In this document: piece by piece, positions 19,358 through 64,000 of the stretch
How positions within the stretch are numbered: position 1 is the stretch's first letter
Layout of the letters: every line of letters begins with the position of its first letter
Assembly: GCA_951406725.2 (NCBI GenBank)
Contig: OX597819.1
Span: forward strand, 56,482,001 to 56,546,000
From: Octopus vulgaris
Taxonomy: Eukaryota
DNA: 64,000 nucleotides
Reading direction: 5' to 3'
Program-made: the position numbers and the translations under genes
Notes under the pieces: generated by a model
Databases searched by the model: none
What the model was told of the DNA's origin: nothing
The model's input: only the letters and a program-made list of their open reading frames with translations

Positions 19358-20580
<1,223 letters not shown>

Positions 20581-20581
20581 A

Positions 20582-21078
20582 ATAATATCACATGTAACTG
20601 TAGACGTAAAGCTGAATGCAGGTTTAATAACTGCATGATAAAGAATGTAGCTTACAAATGTGAGAAGTCAGGTTCGCAGAAATACGTGTTCATTTGTACC
20701 ACCGGAGGCGCCATGAAAAATCGTCTGCGTAACTATCTTGCATATTTTTCCAAAATAAACAAAAGGCATTCCCCATCACTATGGAACCTAGTCTGGAGGT
20801 TCAATGAGAATGGAGTGGAGCATACGATTCACTGGTCTATTATAAAACATGCTGCACTATACAACCGAACATCACGGGTAAGCAACTTATGTCTAGAAGA
20901 GACTCTGGAAATCATCACAGCCAGGGAAAACGTAATAAATACACACACCGAGGTTATTATATCATGTAAGCATGAGAGCAAAAGATCGTTTCTGGAATTT
21001 GAAAAATACATTTTGAAACGGAATAACATCAAACACCCTTACCGTATTAAAGTCCAAGGAAAGAATACAAACAAATAA
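20582..21078 (+). pseudogene. Penelope-like element GIY-YIG endonuclease C-terminus
   Basis: CNCRRKAEC..CMIKNVAYKC..YVFICTT..MKNRLRNY..F..SLWNLVW..IHWSII..NLCLEETLEII..INTHTEVIISCKH is the degenerate Zn-linker plus GIY-YIG pattern of Penelope-like elements. Confidence 0.88.
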
Positions 21079-28937: not shown

Positions 28938-30755
28938 AAACACCAGTCGAAGTGCTAACAACAACAACTACTGTAGAAGTAGCAGCAGGAACAAATGAAC
29001 TCCAGCAGCAAAGCGAAGGGTCAGCGAAAATCCCATTTCCTGACCAAACAACTCGGACTGTTCGAGTGCTGAGGTCGAGAAGGGGAAATGGCAAACAGTT
29101 CCCCCCTAGAAAAAAGACAGTAGAAGAAAAGAGGGGGAGGTGCAAACAGCAGGAACTTCGCAACAGCAGCAACAGGCAAACACAGCAACCACCACCAACA
29201 ATAACAACACTACCACCAGCACTACCACCTCAAATGCCGACACAGACTGCACAAACACCACCAGCCTCACAATCATCGACACCGACAATACACCACATGT
29301 TACATAGATTAGAGAAAACACAGACAACACAATGAAAGACTTTGTCTTCCCAACACACAACACACCACCAGCACCACCACAACACAATGAAAGACTTTGT
29401 CTTCCCAACACACAACACACCACCAGCACCACCACAACACAATGAAAGACTTTGTCTTCCCAACACACAACACACCACCAGCACCACCACAACACAATGA
29501 AAGACTTTGTATTCCCAACACACAACACACCACCAGCACCACCACAACACAATGAAAGACTTTGTCTTCCCAACACACAATACACCACCAGCACCACCAC
29601 AACACAATGAAAGACTTTGTATTCCCAACACACAACACACCACCAGCACCACCACAACACAATGAAAGACTTTGTCTTCCCAACACACAACACACCACCA
29701 GCACCACCACAACACAATGAAAGACTTTGTCTTCCCAACACACAACACACCACCAGCACCACCACAACACAATGAAAGACTTTGTCTTCCCAACACACAA
29801 TACACCACCAGCACCACCACAACACAATGAAAGACTTTGTCTTCCCAACACACAACACACCACCAGCACCACCACAACACAATGAAAGACTTTGTCTTCC
29901 CAACACACAATACACCACCAGCACCACCACAAAACAATGAAAGACTTTGTCTTCCCAACACACAACACACCACCAGCACCACCACAACACAATGAAAGAC
30001 TTTGTCTTCCCAACACACAATACACCACCAGCACCACCACAACACAATGAAAGACTTTGTCTTCCCAACACACAATACACCACCAGCACCACCACAACAC
30101 AATGAAAGACTTTGTATTCCCAACACACAATACACCACCAGCACCACCACAACACAATGAAAGACTTTGTCTTCCCAACACACAATACACCACCAGCACC
30201 ACCACAACACAATGAAAGACTTTGTATTCCCAACACACAACACACCACCAGCACCACCACAACACAATGAAAGACTTTGTATTCCCAACACACAACACAC
30301 CACCAGCACCACCACAACACAATGAAAGACTTTGTCTTCCCAACACACAACACACCACCAGCACCACCACAACACATACCAATTTTAAAACTAAAACAGG
30401 ACATGTTTAAGACATTAAAAATAAATTTTCCAAATGCTGGTGTCACATTTAAAAATACATTCTTTAAGAGACTATAAAGACCTCGTGGAAACGCCCGCAG
30501 CAAAAACCAGGGTGGCACCCCTGCCAGACAACTATGGTAACTAGAGCTATTCTTCGGATGGTGGTGGTGGGGGGGGGGGGGTTCCACGAGGTCATTAACG
30601 CGCCTCCCCTATTGGGAGTATTAATTTGTTTCATTTTGTATTGTTATTTATATTGTTTACAAGTGGAAAACCTTTTGTATCGTTCTGTTTTTGTCCTTTA
30701 TGTTGTTTGTCATTTAATGTTTTTGTATGTGAGCCCTTGTGGCGAATAAAATAAA
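28813..30755 (+). mobile_element. 3' part of a probable ORF1-only Tx1-type element containing a 55-bp array
   Basis: Pro/Thr/Gln-rich ORF with VEKGKWQTVPPRKK across a frameshift. No endonuclease or RT sequence follows before a T-rich 3' UTR ending GAGCCCTTGTGGCGAATAAAATAAA. Confidence 0.5.
29325..30376. repeat. 55-bp minisatellite, 19 copies
   Basis: Unit CAACACAATGAAAGACTTTGT(C/A)TTCCCAACACACAA(C/T)ACACCACCAGCACCACCA; period 55 (AATGA at 29331, 29386, 29441 and onward). Confidence 0.98.
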
Positions 30756-35514: not shown

Positions 35515-35980
35515 GTTCAGAACAGGTTTGAACATTTTAATAAACCGTTTTCCTTTTATCTTTCTTCCAATCTCACTTATGTTATGTAGTTTGTGGAAAG
35601 GAAAAATTAGAAACATTTTCTGTCCACATGTCTCTATATGTTCGCTCAATGGAATTTGTCGAACATTTGTTTTCCGGATTCGTTGTCTATGGACTCGTGA
35701 GCGTTCCGGTAATGCATTCCCTGTCTCGCTTATTTATAGTTCCTCACAATTCAGGTATTTAATGCTGTAGATCAAATTTCTGCTTTTGCTGTTCACATCT
35801 GCATTTGCAAAAATCCGTTCATTTTTTTGTTCTAATGGATCAACCAGTATGTACGTATTGTTATCATTACACTTGGGTATTATGAATGTTTTTCCGTTTG
35901 TTCATGTTGAATTTTGCCTTTGTTAATGGTTTCTTTACACATTTAAATCAGTTCATTGGCATCCTCTCCAGTTTTCCACT
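35515..35980 (-). pseudogene. Penelope-like GIY-YIG endonuclease (inverted fragment)
   Basis: Minus strand SRNLIYSIKYLNCEEL*ISETGNALPERSRVHRQRIR..IPLSEHIETCG..FLIFPFHKL..RFIKMFKPVLN. Confidence 0.85.
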
Positions 35981-35984
35981 GAGG

Positions 35985-36170
35985 CATAATATCAACATCA
36001 AACGAAGCATTTCAAAACTAGAAAAGTTTGCTCTTATACGTCTTAAAAATGATAACACAATTGTCATCAAACAAGCGGATGAAGCGGGTGCAATTATTAT
36101 TATGGATACAGAATATTACTGGGATCTAGCTGAAGATGATTTTAGCGTTACAACGTTCTACCCGCGAAAA
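35985..36170 (+). pseudogene. Penelope-like pre-RT segment
   Basis: LEKFALIRLKNDNTIVIKQADEAGAIIIMDTEYY matches the PLE motif ALxxLxxdxxIVIKPADKGxxxVIMD. Confidence 0.85.
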
Positions 36171-36539: not shown

Positions 36540-36608
<69 letters not shown>

Positions 36609-36678
36609 ACAACTTACAAATAAGGGCAAACGAAAAAAATTTCTAATGCCAAATATGCCGAAATTGGACATATTGTCC

Positions 36679-36710
<32 letters not shown>

Positions 36711-36715
<5 letters not shown>

Positions 36716-36770
36716 CTAATGTAGGATAAAATTTTTTTCTCGAAAAATTTTTTATCCTACATTAGTTATA
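36711..36770. repeat. 60-bp hairpin
   Basis: TATAACTAATGTAGGATAAAA ... TTTTATCCTACATTAGTTATA, with 21-bp perfect arms. Confidence 0.9.
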
Positions 36771-36955
36771 AATTGAATAGTGTTCACTTCCGGATTCTCT
36801 CACTCTGTGAAAGTTTCTAGTTCGAATCACACGTGTCTCGAGATGTGCCGAAGATTTTCTATTTTGGATATATTTGGGGTACTTAGGTCTGCTCGGGACT
36901 TAGTGCTTGCTTTTTCCATGGGTATGAATAAGTATTTCACTTATATCTCACGTAT

Positions 36956-37015
36956 TTGCCGCTGAAGAGGGGAAAATTCTTATGAATTAACCCCGAAATT
37001 GGACCAATACGGTAA
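36956..37015 (+). ncRNA. Type I hammerhead ribozyme, intact core
   Basis: Stem I TTGCCG/CGGTAA; CTGAAGA 36962-68; stem II GGGG/CCCC with inner AATTC/GAATT; GAAA 36995-98; stem III ATTG-GAC-CAAT; AUA triplet with predicted cleavage after 37009. Confidence 0.85.
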
Positions 37016-37161
37016 TAACGAATTTTTTAGAAATTTCTATCGGTTTGTTTCGAGACGCATAAATTATAATGGTTATTGACAATTTTTGTCGTTTTTTTGG
37101 CATATTTGGCATTAGAATTTTTCTTTTGCCCTTATCTTGTAAATTATATATATATATATAT

Positions 37162-41386: not shown

Positions 41387-41951
41387 TGCAGGAGGTGGGG
41401 TGTGGTAATTAGCTTGCTTACTCACCACATGGTTCCGGGTTTAATCCTACTGTATGATACTTTGGGCAAATATCTTGTACTATAGCGTCGGGCTGACTGA
41501 AGCCTTGTGAGTGTATTTATTGGACGGAAATTAAAAGAAGCCCGTCGTATATTTATATATATATATATATAATATTATATATATATATAATAAATATTAG
41601 GGAATAAATCCAAACTTGGCTTAAGTTTTTCATTGTATGATTTGCCTAATAGTGGTTTTATCTAATGTATTTTGCTTGAAAATCTATATATGAATATCCT
41701 GCAGAGTGAGAATTCATCGAGGAAGCGGAAGCCTACCACACGCCGACGATAGGCAATACACCTTGAAACCATGGTCCGTGTGTGGTTTCCGCTTCATCGG
41801 GGAATTACCTCCCTTTGCAGGTTAAGGACACCGTGACGGTGTCGGGCCTTTCTGGTGACGTCGATGTTCGCCTGGGGCTAAATGCAACAGTAACACCCCC
41901 ACCACCCTGCCCTGTCCCTAGCCATATTCAGATGGCTTTAGTCCCTTATGT

Positions 41952-50887: not shown

Positions 50888-51208
50888 CTAATCGAACATT
50901 TCAGTTTATCTGTTTTAATCTGTTGATAAGATAAGATGTGACATGAAGTTGATGAGATTAAATTCTACTTTCGTCAGCTTTTTGTCATACTTTAAATATC
51001 CAAAGAGAATTTACAAGATGGTAGACATGTGATTTACAACATACTTACATACCTTATTGATTCTTTTAATTAGAGAATTCTGCTGTAGTATTTATCAAAA
51101 ATTCTTGTTGATAAGGTACATGAAACGAATAAAAAAGAATAGAAACAATCATATAAGAACGTAGTATATGGGTCAATGAACATTCTATTAAGATGCCTAC
51201 ATGTATGT

Positions 51209-51259
<51 letters not shown>

Positions 51260-51260
<1 letters not shown>

Positions 51261-52971
51261 TTTGCCTGTGTGTGTGTTTGTGTGTGAATGTGTATATGGG
51301 TTTGTTATTTAGGTTTTGGGATGTATGTGTTAATTTGTCTGTGTGTGGAGGGAGTGGATTTTGGTGTATATTGAGGTTTATAAGTTAGTATAGGTATGTG
51401 TATAAGTCGTGGGTCTGTGGTTTACGTGTGTGTATTTGTGTGTGAATGTTTAGGTTAGGGGGATTGCTATATAGGTTTGTTATAGAGTTTAGCAAAGGGA
51501 GATTTTATCGTTATATGTTTTTAAGAGTTTTGGTTTATCATGGTTTTTTTAGGGAATTCGTGGTAATTTGTCTATTTTCGATGTTGGTTGTTTTATTGCA
51601 TTGTTTCATTCATAATTTTTGAGTGGTGTTCGTTTTGCCACGTGAATATTATTTTTAATTCCATTTATTCCATTTCTCCATTCATTAATTTAGAGATGTT
51701 CGTTTCCGGAGCGGTTATACTTTTTATACATATGTTAAGTTCCTTGGTAAAGTAATTTTGTTTGGTGTATATGTTGAGGCTTATATGTACTTGTGGGTGT
51801 GTGTGAGTGGGGTGGGTGTTTGTATTTGTTATGGGTGTGTGGTTTACATGTGTGTTTTTGTGTGTGAATGTATAGGTTAAAGGGATTGCTATATAAGTAT
51901 GTTATAGTGTTTAGTAAAGGGAGGTTTTATCATTTCTGTTTTGTGAGTTTTAGCTTATCATGGTAGTTTTATAAAAGAATCCATTCATAATTTTTGTGTT
52001 TATTTGTCTGTGTGGGGTTGAGTGGGTTTTTGGAGTATATGTTGAGGTTTATATGTATGTATTGGTATGTGTAAGTGGTGTGGGTATTTGTATATGTCGT
52101 GGGTGTGTGGTTTACGTGTGTGTATTTGTGTGTGAATGTTTAGGTTAGGGGGATTGCTATATAGGTATGTTATAGAGTTTAGTAAAGGGAGATTTTATCA
52201 TTATATGTTTTTGTGAGTTTTGGTTTATCATGGTAGGTTTGTTAAGGAATTCGTAGTAATTTGTGTATATTTGCGATGTCTGTTGTTTTATTGCATTGTT
52301 TCATTCATAATTTTTAAGTAGTGTTCGTTTTACCAAGTGAATATAATTTTTAATTCCATTTATTCCATTTCTCCGTTCATAATTTTGAGTGATGTCCGTT
52401 TTCTAGAGCGTGAATGTGGGTTGTATGTGTGTGTGTGTGGGAGTATGAATAAGTATTGTGTTGAAGTATTTAGCTATTTTATTTATTTATAGTTGCCTAG
52501 ACGTTTTTATGTGTATGTATAGGGATATATATATAGGTGTGTGGTTTAGTGTATGTAGTTAGATATGGTTATATATAATTAGGTATATGTGTATGGGTGT
52601 ATATATAGTTTATTATTATATTATTATTATTTTTTTGTTTTGTTTTATATTTTATATTTTATATTTTATATTTAATTGTTGATAGGTTTATTTTAGTTTA
52701 TATATTGTTTATATATTGATTATATATGGATTATATATAGGTTATATATGGATTATATATTTATATTTTTTCATTCATACTTTAATTATTTTAAAATTAT
52801 TATTTGTATATTTTAAAATATTGATATTTTAGATTGAAGTCCACCTGAAGATTGTCGATCAAGACAAGAAACGATTGTAGTGGCGGTTTTTTTGACTATT
52901 TATTAAAATTTTATGTATTGATTAAGTCTTTCCTTGTTTGTTTTGCAAAATAGTGGTTTTGTCTCTAATAA

Positions 52972-52975
<4 letters not shown>
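51260..52975 (+). mobile_element. G/T-skewed non-coding element with internal repeats and 3' hammerhead, bounded by (TA)n
   Basis: Block A occurs three times (about 51360, 51760, 52028) and block B twice (about 51552, 52247). No ORF. It ends hammerhead, then TAGTGGTTTTGTCTCTAAT, then (TA)n. Confidence 0.7.
52841..52883 (+). ncRNA. Minimal type I hammerhead ribozyme, intact core
   Basis: CCAC-CTGAAGA-TTGTC-GATCAA-GACAA-GAAA-CGATTG-TA-GTGG. GUA triplet with predicted cleavage after 52879. ACGATTGT is self-complementary with G.U pairs. Confidence 0.88.
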
Positions 52976-53008
<33 letters not shown>

Positions 53009-60510: not shown

Positions 60511-60836
60511 TTTGAAGCGGCATAGTCCGTCTGAAAAAATTATTGTTGAAATTGTCGTTGTGTTGTCCACGGATTACCAAGGATTATTTACCAAGGGTTT
60601 TACCAACAGTGCATTTGGCCTGGATTACAATTTTTGGCCGAAGAAGTGGAAAAAAAAAAAAAAAGAACTGAATTCCTTTGTCTGAATTGAACTCTCTTTC
60701 TCTGTCTACTATTTATTTGTAAAAACTTTTTTGAACTGCCATTTTCAATTTTATTTCTTCCCTTCTGTTGCATTTTTTCATTCTCCTTTCTGTGGCTAAT
60801 TTTAGTTTATCATTTTGAACTGTTGTATTTTACGTT

Positions 60837-62089
60837 ATGGCACAGGCAAAGAAATTCAATGTGTGGGAGTTAACACCTCCCAAAAAATATTTGCACGAAC
60901 TCGAGGAAAGAACCGTGGTGCTGAGGACATATTCAAAGTCACTCGACACCATAATGGTTTTTCCGAGAGACACCATTGTGAACGAGCTGGCAGACTATAT
61001 GCCAGCCGTTAAACATATTCAACGGGGAGTCAAATACGCAACGGTATGGTTGCTATTTGACTCCGCTGAAGCAGCTTGCAAATTTGCAAGCCAGCCCATT
61101 GAGGGCGATGAGATTCTGTTTCTCCCCAGTTACAAGGGGGAAAAATTGTTACGTTTGTGGGTCTGTGGCCTGCCGCCCGGCTTTGAGCCCGAGTGGGTGG
61201 AAGATTCCATCCGCCGGGGTCTGAGCGGTGGTGGCGCCAAGGTCCTGAATGTGAAAATGCAGCCTGCGGCTAACTGGGAAGCAGGAAAGGCTACTTTGAC
61301 TCTGTGGACCCAGCAGCCAAGAGTCTGGTTTTGCCGGACTTCCTGAAGATGGCCGGGTCCAAGTATCCGGTGATGCTGAGGGACGCGCCCCCAAGTGTCA
61401 CCTGTGTTCGGAGCCTGGACATATTAAGAAGAAGTGTCCCGGGGGCCGTGGTGCCGCCCCGGAACATGAAAAGGAAAAGGTGCCCGCCGTCCCCTCATTG
61501 GAGGGGGAGACGTGAAAGTCGTGGAGGAGGTTGCCTCCACGAAAAGAAAGAGGCTGGCGAGCAACAACGGTTGCCCACCAAAGAACGCTCAGGGGGCGGA
61601 GGGGGATAGCATTCCCCCGTGTCTGGTGACGGAGTCCCCTGGGTTAGCAGTCTCCCCCAAAAGAAGGAGGAGAAAAAGGAGAGGTCGGACGTCTGACGTT
61701 TCTGTGTCTCCGACGGAACCGCGGGTGGGATGTGTGCCACCCGCGGACAAGGCTCCGTCAGTAGGAAGTGTGCTACTGACGGATCAGTGTGAGGTCCCTT
61801 CCTGTGAAGAGGAGTTATTTCTCCTCCTTTACCACAAGGGAGGGAAGGTGGAAAAGTTTTTAAATGGCTTGGGTGACCGAGAACGCAAGGACACGGTCGG
61901 CTCAAGGAGTCCGTTATGGCCTCCGCGGGTAGCTGCGGAGGTAGTAACGGAAGATATTTGACAAGGGTCGCAGAGACCTTTCAGAGGAAAGATTTTACTT
62001 TTCTCTTTGCAGGCCTCGACTTGTCGTCGCAGAGTTGTCTGCAGGCGGCAAGACAATTTGCTTCGGGGACCTGACGGGGAGAATTGTTA
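60837..62089 (+). pseudogene. Gag-like ORF1 with CCHC zinc knuckle, several frameshifts
   Basis: RRM-like N-terminus (RTVVLRTY..VWLLFDSAEAA..LWVCGLPP), KCHLCSEPGHIKKKC, and a basic KRRRRKRR stretch. Confidence 0.85.
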
Positions 62090-62374: not shown

Positions 62375-64000
62375 GACATGCGCAGTTAGTCGGTTGCTTC
62401 TTGTTGAGCTCGAGCGGACGTGAGTAACAAGCTCTGTCCAACTAAAGAAAAAAGACCAAAAACGGAAAGTTGTCGAGGTAAGTGATTTTGTTTATTGTGA
62501 GTTGGGCATAATTTATTGCGTGCCAATTATTATTTCAGTAGGTTGTGTCCAACTCTGAGACAATTTCGCCTTCGCTGGGCGGCTGCCGTTTTTGTGTTCA
62601 TTGAAAAAAAAGAAAAAACAGTGGAGGGGCGTATACTCAGGATTCAATACAGTTACTGTTAAAATTACCGTTGGCAGTAACCAGTGCTGTGTTTGAGTTT
62701 GCTGAATTTATTCCCTTGTCAGAGTACTTCGCAAGAAAAGTATAAAAATAAGCCACTATTGGATTACCTTTCGGACCCATTTTTGTGGAGGTTGTGTTGC
62801 AGTTGCGGCGTTCCAGGTTCAACCCAGGCCGGGAGTACCGCAGAATATTTTTGCTGTGTTTTTTCTGTTTATTAACTTTCTTTTGAACTTCATTTACCCC
62901 CCCCCTTTTGTTTTTTCTTTATTGCGACTTTCCGTTAATTTCTTCCCTTCTGTTGTGCTTTCTCCTTTTTGTTTTTTCAAAAATCTATCAAATTTATTTA
63001 GACTTTTGAACTTTTTTCTTCCTGCTTTTGAGTCTAATTTGAATATATTTTTTAAAAAACATGGCAATGAAAAATAACAAAGTTTTGGAGTGGGAAATCA
63101 TACCACCCAAAAAGTGGTTGAAGGACCGTGAAGATAGGACGGTGGTGTTGAGAACCTACTCCAAGGCACTTGACACCATCGCCCTATTCGAAAAGACGGC
63201 AATTGAGGAGGAGTTGGAGGAGTATTTGCCAACAATTAAATTCATTTCCAGGGGTGTCAAATATGGAACGGTGTGGTTGCTGTTTGACACACCTGAAGAG
63301 GCTTGCAAATTTGCTAGCGAACCCTTGGAGGGTAAGGAAATCTTATTCCTGCCCACTTACAAAAAAAGAAATTAATGAAAGCTTGGATCTGCGGACTGCC
63401 ACCCGACATAGAACCCGAGTGGATAGAGGAGACTATCCGCCGGGGTCTGGGTGACAGCGAAACTAAGCTCCTCAATGTAAAAGTTCTTCCTGCGGCTGCT
63501 TGGGTTGGCTCGAAAGCAGTTTTGACCCTGTGGACCCAATCAGCCAATCTGGTTTTTCCAGATTTTTTGAAAATGGCCGGGTGCAGGTACCCGGTGATGC
63601 TTGAGGGTCGCCCCCCTAAGTGTCATCGGTGCTTGGAGTCCGGCCACATAAAGAAGAACTGTCCTCGGGAACAAAATAGGATCCCGGAACAGTTAAGTAA
63701 AACCCCTCTAGAAGAGGGAACGATAACGGCCGAGAAAGCAGAGGATTCCTCAAGCAGAGGCCGAAAGAGGAAGGTGAGCAACAATGGGTGCTCACCAAAG
63801 GATAATAGGGATGAGGAGAGGAGGGCGAATCTTCCAGCCACGGAGGAGACGCACCCTCCCTCAGTTGAAAAGGGAAAAAAAAAGAAAAAGAGGAAGAAAA
63901 ACGGGACGTTGCCGGCTGTCAGTGTGGCACCGGAATGTCGCGGAACTACGTCGGTTGGGGTTGTGCCACCGACAAGAGAAGGAATACCGTTGGCGGAAAC
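62375..64000 (+). mobile_element. Second related Tx1/L1-type element, truncated by window end
   Basis: Begins immediately after the duplicated target. Its 5' UTR differs from element 1, starting CATGCGCAGTTAGTC...CGGACGTG (Inr/DPE-like). ORF1 is homologous to element 1. Confidence 0.82.
63061..64000 (+). CDS. ORF1 zinc-knuckle nucleic-acid-binding protein; one frameshift in the A-run near 63361-63372
   Basis: MAMKNNKVLEWEIIPPKK..RTVVLRTYSK..RGVKYGTVWLLFD, then in another frame AWICGLPPDIEPEW..LEGRPPKCHRCLESGHIKKNC, open to the window end. Confidence 0.8.

What the first reader, a model, noticed from the sequence alone, without database searches (positions are those of the whole stretch)
51260..52975. 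1.7-kb strand-skewed non-coding element terminated by a perfect minimal hammerhead
Seen: the plus strand is strongly G/T-rich and C-poor, built as A-B-A-A-B diverged blocks of roughly 160-200 nt, followed by an AT-rich stretch, an intact hammerhead (52841-83), the shared terminus and (TA)n. No ORF on either strand. Inference: a large non-autonomous PLE-dependent element or an unusually long pLTR, with internal duplications from RT slippage. I do not recognise this architecture.
Basis: partly seen in the sequence, partly recalled or inferred. Interest (0 to 1): 0.75.

Follow-up and report, generated by a model that had tools for sequence, protein, structure and literature searches.

The report
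Penelope retroelement end with long intron
This 1.7-kb stretch is one copy of an abundant non-coding repeat that ends in a hammerhead ribozyme motif; it is likely the broken-off end of a Penelope-like jumping gene, and its G/T-rich part is likely a kept intron of at least 1.6 kb, longer than the Penelope leader introns I found in print.

Summary
The + strand is strongly G/T-skewed, has no ORF, is built A-B-A-A-B, carries a minimal type I hammerhead at 52841-52883 and lies between (TA)n tracts. Public contigs cover the whole stretch at great depth, and this copy differs from the family majority at about 8-13 of 1,726 places, so the block duplications (84-85% alike) predate this insertion.

New here: a 90-nt AG-free, T-rich tract ends in TTTTAG at 52832, 8 nt before helix I. 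In one run guessed to be RNA (1 of 4 such runs laid), contigs switch to a foreign leader exactly after that AG, with both alleles of a nearby +G variant; DNA contigs carry both alleles with the window-type upstream sequence.

Best reading: a 5'-truncated terminal repeat of a Penelope-like element whose G/T-rich part is a retained intron of at least 1.58 kb. Drosophila virilis Penelope has this intron-then-hammerhead layout with a 75-bp intron. The splice donor, any linked RT and cleavage were not seen.

The scan earlier reported a 1.1-kb intron and spliced retrocopies for a Penelope-like family elsewhere in this genome (e1-10342667, e1-10340866; unchecked). Verdict: new variant of a known kind.

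The parts
51204..51248 (.). (TA)n tract, left flank (likely insertion target)
51249..52832 (+). G/T-rich non-coding segment, likely the 3' part of a retained spliceosomal intron, cut short at its 5' end; no leader exon or donor in this copy
51249..51325 (+). partial A-type block where this copy begins
   Evidence: 51268-51316 matches 51426-51478 at 81%
51326..51568 (+). block A1
   Evidence: alignment
51569..51744 (+). block B1 and spacer
51745..51994 (+). block A2
51995..52263 (+). block A3
52264..52410 (+). block B2
52604..52761 (+). AT-rich stretch with a 7-nt array (52604-52673) and an 11-nt array (52698-52761)
52741..52832 (+). 90-nt AG-free, T-rich tract ending in TTTTAG: likely 3' splice site
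   Evidence: longest AG-free run of the element; 78 AGs in 51260-52840; contigs change partner at 52833
52833..52975 (+). likely second exon: hammerhead plus terminus
52841..52883 (+). minimal type I hammerhead motif, predicted cut after 52879, predicted to need a dimer
   Evidence: layout like Hydra-clade motifs (by eye)
52901..52975 (+). terminus shared at about 80% with two other short repeats in the window; the family's 3' end lies near 52969-52975
   Evidence: X1 contigs leave the stretch behind 52969 into TA-rich letters
52978..53005 (.). (TA)14, right flank

Best explanation
The stretch is a non-coding, high-copy repeat ending in a hammerhead motif between two TA tracts, and it is likely a 5'-truncated terminal repeat (pLTR) of a Penelope-like retrotransposon whose G/T-rich part is likely a retained spliceosomal intron of at least 1.58 kb. 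Shown: skew, no ORF, hammerhead motif, acceptor-shaped site 8 nt before helix I, abundance, TA flanks, and contigs in one run that join another sequence exactly at that site. Inferred: in a whole element a promoter and a short leader exon (at least 21 nt seen) lie upstream of the intron. Splicing would join the leader to the hammerhead exon and give the RNA that runs on into the next unit's ORF. An unspliced (or antisense) RNA would serve as template for reverse transcription from the 3' terminus at a (TA)n nick, and here synthesis would have stopped inside the intron after about 1.7 kb. The hammerhead would cut only as a dimer of two units, so this lone copy is predicted to be inactive. The A/B duplications arose in the master element, where an intron would tolerate them.
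For: (1) The longest AG-free run of the element (90 nt) ends at the AG at 52831-32, one of 78 AGs. (2) In run X12, 5 of the 6 loose ends shown carry one foreign 13-21-nt leader joined at 52833: three directly and two as reverse complements in fold-back contigs. (3) All four combinations occur. Window-type upstream without +G: the window, and a 219-nt X12 contig laid on 52678-52862 with 0 differences. Window-type upstream with +G at 52835: 1 contig in X1 and 6 in X8. Leader without and with +G: X12. (4) X12 depth is 19.5 up to 52827 and 464-525 in 52838-52867, while DNA run X1 goes from 27-30 thousand to 9-70 thousand with no step at the AG (the tool warns that contig depth is a poor measure). 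(5) All 30 bins are covered in both DNA-guessed runs; 20 listed runs of 9 studies hold half or more of the words. (6) Precedent: the D. virilis intron ends at the 5' end of helix I (PMC4209133) and is 75 bp, 46 bp after the start site, with most transcripts spliced (PMC2377424 passages); Chlamys-3 has a 398/751-bp intron at the same kind of place (PMC8557442). (7) The hammerhead layout and its distance from the end resemble Hydra-clade motifs, and Hydra elements target (TA)n.
Against: The junction was seen in 1 of 4 RNA-guessed runs laid: X11 covered only 52864 onward, X4 laid nothing, X3 had no depth at 52835 and showed no such end. 'RNA' is the tool's guess for X12. The loose-end tables were cut (308 and 34 rows not shown), so intron-less DNA copies cannot be excluded; the fold-back contigs may be such copies or library artefacts. 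No donor GT and no leader were seen in DNA (0 window matches at up to 3 mismatches). No RT or endonuclease was found in 2.4 kb on either side. The 219-nt contig has only 30 letters past the AG, one short of the tool's bridging rule, and the link across 52605-52677 is inferred from unlaid letters because the tool skips that repeat. Published Hydra consensus elements are mostly under 3 kb, and in the two I read to the end the ORF stops a few hundred bases before the hammerhead, unlike this layout.
Confidence: 0.62

Rival explanations
1. The intron is real, but the family is non-autonomous: a leader-intron-hammerhead-terminus unit with no ORF of its own, copied in trans by another Penelope-like enzyme.
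For: No ORF in or beside this copy. Depth over the G/T-rich part does not fall toward the 5' end in X8. The terminus is shared with other short repeats. Non-autonomous derivatives of pLTRs are described (bioRxiv 10.64898/2026.07.22.740005, parts 1-3 of 5 read).
Against: This copy starts inside a partial A block and lacks the leader, so it is not a whole unit and its lack of an ORF says little. Most PLE insertions are 5'-truncated.
Confidence: 0.18
2. There is no splicing: the G/T-rich part is a long 3' UTR, and the X12 contigs come from a sister subfamily or recombinant whose sequence happens to diverge at 52833.
For: Only one run shows the junction. A long G/T-rich non-coding 3' end is visible in one published Naiad consensus (excerpt). 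X1 depth does rise 2-4 fold over the hammerhead and beyond, so shorter or other-headed copies exist in DNA.
Against: The switch falls exactly behind the AG that closes the longest AG-free tract, and both +G alleles occur with both upstream forms. A separate subfamily would have to share that polymorphism.
Confidence: 0.15
3. The G/T-rich part is unrelated to the hammerhead end: a decayed antisense ORF or a separate TG-derived repeat lying next to a short PLE stump.
For: The minus strand is A/C-rich like many PLE ORFs (by eye). No single contig spans the whole stretch.
Against: The copy is about 99% like the family majority yet has 24-48 stops per frame and no Pfam hit. There is no TA tract between the parts. 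Contigs run from the AT-rich part up to or across the acceptor, one at depth 1,287 in X8.
Confidence: 0.05

Closest known systems
Drosophila virilis Penelope pLTR (PMC4209133 parts 1-2 of 4 read; PMC2377424 passages)
   Same: Short leader, intron, then a hammerhead whose helix I begins at the intron's 3' end; small palindromic helix III; spliced and unspliced forms; intron kept in genomic copies.
   Different: Intron 75 bp there, at least 1.58 kb and built of duplicated blocks here. Splicing was shown by RT-PCR there and only by contigs of one run here. No ORF is linked here.
Hydra clade of Penelope-like elements, incl. Hydra-1_Obim (PMC8557442 section 11, passages, supplement parts 2 and 52)
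   Same: (TA)n target; hammerhead near the 3' end with an extra letter on each side of helix II, a helix II that often starts U-A, and a 4-bp palindromic helix III (compared by eye).
   Different: Hydra-1_Obim has a different hammerhead sequence. The window motifs searched were not found in that supplement, which is held cut. Published consensus lengths are 1.1-3.0 kb, and the clade is defined by protein motifs I could not test.
Chlamys-3_cRei (PMC8557442 passages, section 15)
   Same: Start site in the pLTR and a several-hundred-base 5'-UTR intron (398 or 751 bp).
   Different: Green-algal, N-terminal endonuclease, most Chlamys lack a canonical hammerhead; intron at most half as long.
Animal non-LTR retrozymes (bioRxiv 10.64898/2026.07.22.740005 parts 1-3; PMC7229834 search listing only)
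   Same: Non-coding, type I hammerhead, related to pLTRs.
   Different: They are tandem units of 51-972 bp each with a hammerhead; here one hammerhead in 1.7 kb, and the duplicated blocks hold none.

Membership tests
EN+ Penelope-like element | ORF with PLE reverse transcriptase and GIY-YIG endonuclease | not testable with these tools
   None in this copy or in 2.4 kb of each flank; whole elements could not be fetched (scans 23, 24, 41 empty).
EN+ Penelope-like element | Minimal type I hammerhead near the 3' end | tested here: met
   52841-52883, cut site 96 nt from the end.
EN+ Penelope-like element | Tandem or inverted pLTR arrangement | tested here: inconclusive
   Single copy here; fold-back contigs in X12 and X11 may be genomic inverted junctions or artefacts.
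EN+ Penelope-like element | Insertion into (TA)n (Naiad, Hydra) | tested here: met
   TA tracts on both sides; 25 X1 contigs end into TA-rich letters behind 52969.
Spliceosomal intron | 3' splice site: YAG after an AG-free pyrimidine-rich tract | tested here: met
Spliceosomal intron | 5' splice site GT after the leader exon | not testable with these tools
   Leader absent from the window; no GT..AG joint among the 9 joints listed.
Spliceosomal intron | Spliced form in RNA, unspliced in DNA | tested here: inconclusive
   Junction in 1 of 4 RNA-guessed runs and in 0 of 2 DNA-guessed runs among the rows shown; tables cut.
Hydra clade | RWK and DKT motifs, CxCX5C linker, no CCHH | not testable with these tools
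   No protein is linked to this family.
Hydra clade | Hammerhead layout as in File S2 | tested here: met
   By eye; not exclusive to the clade.
Minimal hammerhead (Cervera and de la Pena 2014) | Intact core, helix I 4-5 bp, palindromic helix III | tested here: met
   in X1 only 52873 varies at 4% or more within the motif.
Minimal hammerhead (Cervera and de la Pena 2014) | G10.1-C11.1 pair | tested here: not met
   U-A here; many Hydra-clade motifs also start helix II with U-A.
Minimal hammerhead (Cervera and de la Pena 2014) | Self-cleavage | not testable with these tools
   Only contigs available; no ends listed (table 6).
Non-LTR retrozyme | Tandem units, each with a hammerhead, 51-972 bp | tested here: not met
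   One hammerhead in 1.7 kb; none in the A/B blocks (range).

The most novel reading that the evidence does not exclude
A Penelope-like family carries a kilobase-scale, repeat-expanded intron right in front of its ribozyme, and splicing gates the ribozyme: the leader exon would extend helix I by about 7 base pairs, so spliced and unspliced RNAs would differ in cutting. One form would serve as message and the other as the transposition template, with spliced RNA also copied back as head-to-head mini-elements. The pairing is only a lead (-5.8 kcal/mol; 162 of 2000 shuffled leaders do as well).
Probability: 0.13. Interest if true: 0.72.

Novelty: new variant of a known kind. Interest (0 to 1): 0.42.

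Why it matters
Why Penelope-like elements keep introns, and what their hammerheads do, are open questions (PMC8557442 section 15; PMC3846280 passages). A young, abundant family with a 1.6-kb intron just before the hammerhead makes both testable. Intron-bearing and intron-less copies are easy to tell apart and count in a genome, and the two RNA forms can be compared in a cleavage assay. It also suggests that some skewed 'unknown' repeats in this genome may be retroelement introns. The layout itself is known from Drosophila, so the surprise is in scale, not kind.

Tried and rejected
No whole genome is held, so copies, ends and a linked RT could not be retrieved. Pattern scans of metagenome, viral and prokaryote collections found 0 matches each. 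Rfam: 0 hits at gathering score, and only microsatellite-type matches at E up to 10. Decayed ORF on either strand: 0 Pfam hits in six read-through frames; the one flank hit (MENTAL, E 0.0016, below cut-off) lies on low-complexity sequence. No RNA holder is on record in the run search; X4 laid nothing; neither is evidence. Sequence look-ups in earlier findings gave nothing, or two unrelated bacterial notes. Window motifs were not found in the supplements of PMC8557442 (file held cut) or PMC13282606 (that file holds no library). I wondered whether the B blocks are decayed hammerhead copies; neither scan finds a core there. Leader pairing with the strand after helix I is not significant (162 of 2000). 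The spliced form was not folded as one chain, so the gating idea rests on a two-strand estimate only. Copy number was not estimated: contig depth does not give it. Literature searches showed no paper on a kilobase intron in a cephalopod Penelope element; the library lacks most subscription papers, Repbase and Dfam, and bioRxiv supplements are closed.

Full report
Setting. No genome is held for this window. The window is AT-rich and full of microsatellites and retroelement remnants. Earlier scan notes call the genome an octopus; I did not test that.

Observation. The element is T 827, G 405, A 387, C 97. GC skew is 0.64 over 51260-52600, the highest in the window; the best of 589 non-overlapping 1.7-kb windows reaches 0.50. 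Each frame has 24-48 stops and the longest open run is 78 codons. Six read-through frames of the G/T-rich part give no Pfam hit. Self-comparison gives 51326-51705 against 51995-52401 at 84.6% and 51761-52006 against 52029-52273 at 84.7%. That is a partial A, then A-B-A-A-B, with A about 245-270 nt and B about 150-175 nt. TA tracts flank both ends. The last 75 nt match two other short repeats of the window at 80% and 84%.

Hammerhead. The motif at 52841-52883 has a 4-bp helix I, an intact core, a 5-bp helix II and a palindromic helix III, with the predicted cut after 52879. A strict descriptor, set after seeing the hit, matched 0 of 200 window shuffles and 0 of 5000 element shuffles. Rfam misses it. 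It is not the favoured monomer fold (-6.7 against -11.9 kcal/mol), which fits the report that such motifs cut only weakly and as dimers (PMC4209133, parts 1-2 of 4 read). In DNA run X1 the only variant at 4% or more inside the motif is A for G at 52873 (83% of depth), which makes the helix III palindrome fully Watson-Crick. Helix II closes with U-A, not the usual G-C, but many Hydra-clade motifs do the same, and the whole layout resembles them (PMC8557442 File S2, by eye).

Family. Twenty of 24 listed runs, from 9 studies and two organism labels, hold half or more of the element's words; none is on record as RNA. Both DNA-guessed runs cover all 30 bins, at summed depths of about 2,000 to 1.2 million; this is no copy number but points to many copies. 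Of the 40 difference rows, the window differs from the majority at 8 places in both DNA runs and at 5 more in X1 alone, of 1,726. One 688-nt contig differs at 3 letters and 1 gap. The copy is thus about 99% like its family while its blocks are 85% alike, so the duplications are old features of the master element, and the family itself is non-coding over this stretch. Twenty-five X1 contigs leave the stretch behind 52969 into TA-rich letters, marking the 3' end. The 5' end falls in a TG run that the tool skips. The copy begins in a partial A block, so I infer truncation.

Are the parts linked in other copies? A 219-nt X12 contig lies on 52678-52862 with no difference, and X8 has a contig on 52747-52833 at depth 1,287. 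Across the skipped repeat 52605-52677 the link is inferred: two X12 contigs have 68 and 34 unlaid letters that would overlap there by about 29. No listed piece spans the whole stretch.

The acceptor. PMC4209133 says that in D. virilis Penelope the intron's end maps to the 5' end of helix I. Here TTTTAG ends at 52832, 8 nt before helix I, and closes the longest AG-free run of the element, 90 nt and T-rich; the region has 78 AGs. I noted this idea and then laid 52678-52975 on three RNA-guessed runs and one DNA-guessed run. In X12, 5 of the 6 loose ends shown carry one foreign leader of 13-21 nt joined at 52833: three directly, two as the reverse strand of fold-back contigs. The leader occurs with and without an extra G at 52835. 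The window-type upstream sequence also occurs both ways: without it in the window, with it in 1 X1 contig and 6 X8 contigs. Splicing explains all four forms; a sister subfamily would have to share the polymorphism. X12 depth steps from 19.5 to 464-525 across the site, while X1 shows no step there (27-30 thousand before; 25, 9, 37 and 70 thousand in the next four bins).

Limits of that evidence. X11 covered only 52864 onward, X4 laid nothing, and X3 had no depth at 52835, so the junction stands in 1 of 4 RNA-guessed runs. Loose-end tables were cut (308 and 34 rows hidden), so intron-less DNA copies may exist. The fold-back contigs may be transcribed intron-less retrocopies or library artefacts; either way a leader joined at the AG would record use of that site. 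The leader is not in the window, so the donor is unseen. No RT or endonuclease lies within 2.4 kb on either side.

Mechanism. Shown: anatomy, abundance, acceptor shape, junction contigs in one run. Inferred from D. virilis Penelope (75-bp intron 46 bp after the start site, most transcripts spliced; PMC2377424 passages) and Chlamys-3 (398/751-bp intron; PMC8557442): the terminal repeat holds promoter, leader, intron, hammerhead and terminus. Spliced RNA would lead into the next unit's ORF. Unspliced or antisense RNA (PMC3846280 passages) would be copied from the 3' end into a (TA)n target, and this copy stopped inside the intron. That introns lean to G and T on the sense strand is recalled, not tested, and the skew here is far stronger than I recall for ordinary introns. 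Whether the duplications came from RT slippage or unequal exchange is open. Other copies have a different block order with an extra 32-nt segment (joint 52251 to 51764 in X12). A leader pairing that would lengthen helix I is possible but not significant (162 of 2000 shuffles).

Comparison. It works like the intron-then-hammerhead pLTR of Penelope. Membership in Penelope-like elements is likely but not proven without an ORF, and the clade cannot be fixed. It is not a non-LTR retrozyme by the tandem-unit test. Eight searches showed no paper on a kilobase intron in a cephalopod Penelope element. The recent octopus repeat annotation counts 190 Penelope-like families and 6.83% of the genome but mentions neither intron nor hammerhead (PMC13282606 passages and supplement). 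Repeat libraries and subscription papers were not searchable. Two unchecked scan notes describe a 1.1-kb intron and spliced head-to-head retrocopies for a Penelope-like family in this genome. My sequence look-ups did not return them, so it may be another family; they are not independent support.

Verdict. Real feature, new variant of a known kind, interest 0.42.

Noticed in passing
window 36600-37150 and 35886-36130: A second hammerhead motif at about 36955-37015 (+) sits in a TA-flanked unit with inverted arms (about 36610-36670 and 37090-37145, by eye); a fragment resembling a PLE RT start lies upstream (motif recalled; no Pfam hit).
   Followed up: partly
window 20533-21078 (+): Decayed GIY-YIG-like frame with a CxCX5C motif as described for Hydra-clade PLEs (no Pfam hit); not linked to the finding.
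   Followed up: partly
window 41090-40934 (-) and 41590-41690 (+): Two short TA-flanked repeats that start at the same point and share the finding's terminus; X1 depth jumps about sevenfold over that terminus, so it belongs to more abundant families too.
   Followed up: partly
window 41300-41100 (-): Short TA-flanked repeat with hammerhead-like core words that my scans did not accept; perhaps the rewired hammerhead of earlier notes such as e1-8670101 (by eye).
   Followed up: no
window 52559-52696: The acceptor region seems duplicated (52559-52658 against 52731-52835, 71%), with a second TTTAG at 52696 soon after a 75-nt AG-free run: a possible alternative acceptor.
   Followed up: partly
window 51607, 51679, 51982, 52302, 52374, 52772: A 12-nt motif recurs six times in the element (up to 2 mismatches); all 3 exact copies in the window lie here, and the leader's 5' end shares 10 of its letters. 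It contains an initiator-like word (consensus recalled). Possibly duplicated start-site sequence.
   Followed up: partly
runs X12, X3, X11 at window 52251 and 52864: Other copies hold a 32-nt segment absent here, joining the end of one A block to the start of another; X11 has it in a fold-back contig.
   Followed up: no
window 29324-30376: 55-nt unit repeated 19 times at 98%, open in several frames, at the end of a LINE-like remnant.
   Followed up: no
window 60819-61346 and 63043-63375 (+): Two similar frames that look like retrotransposon ORF1 pieces (by eye).
   Followed up: no
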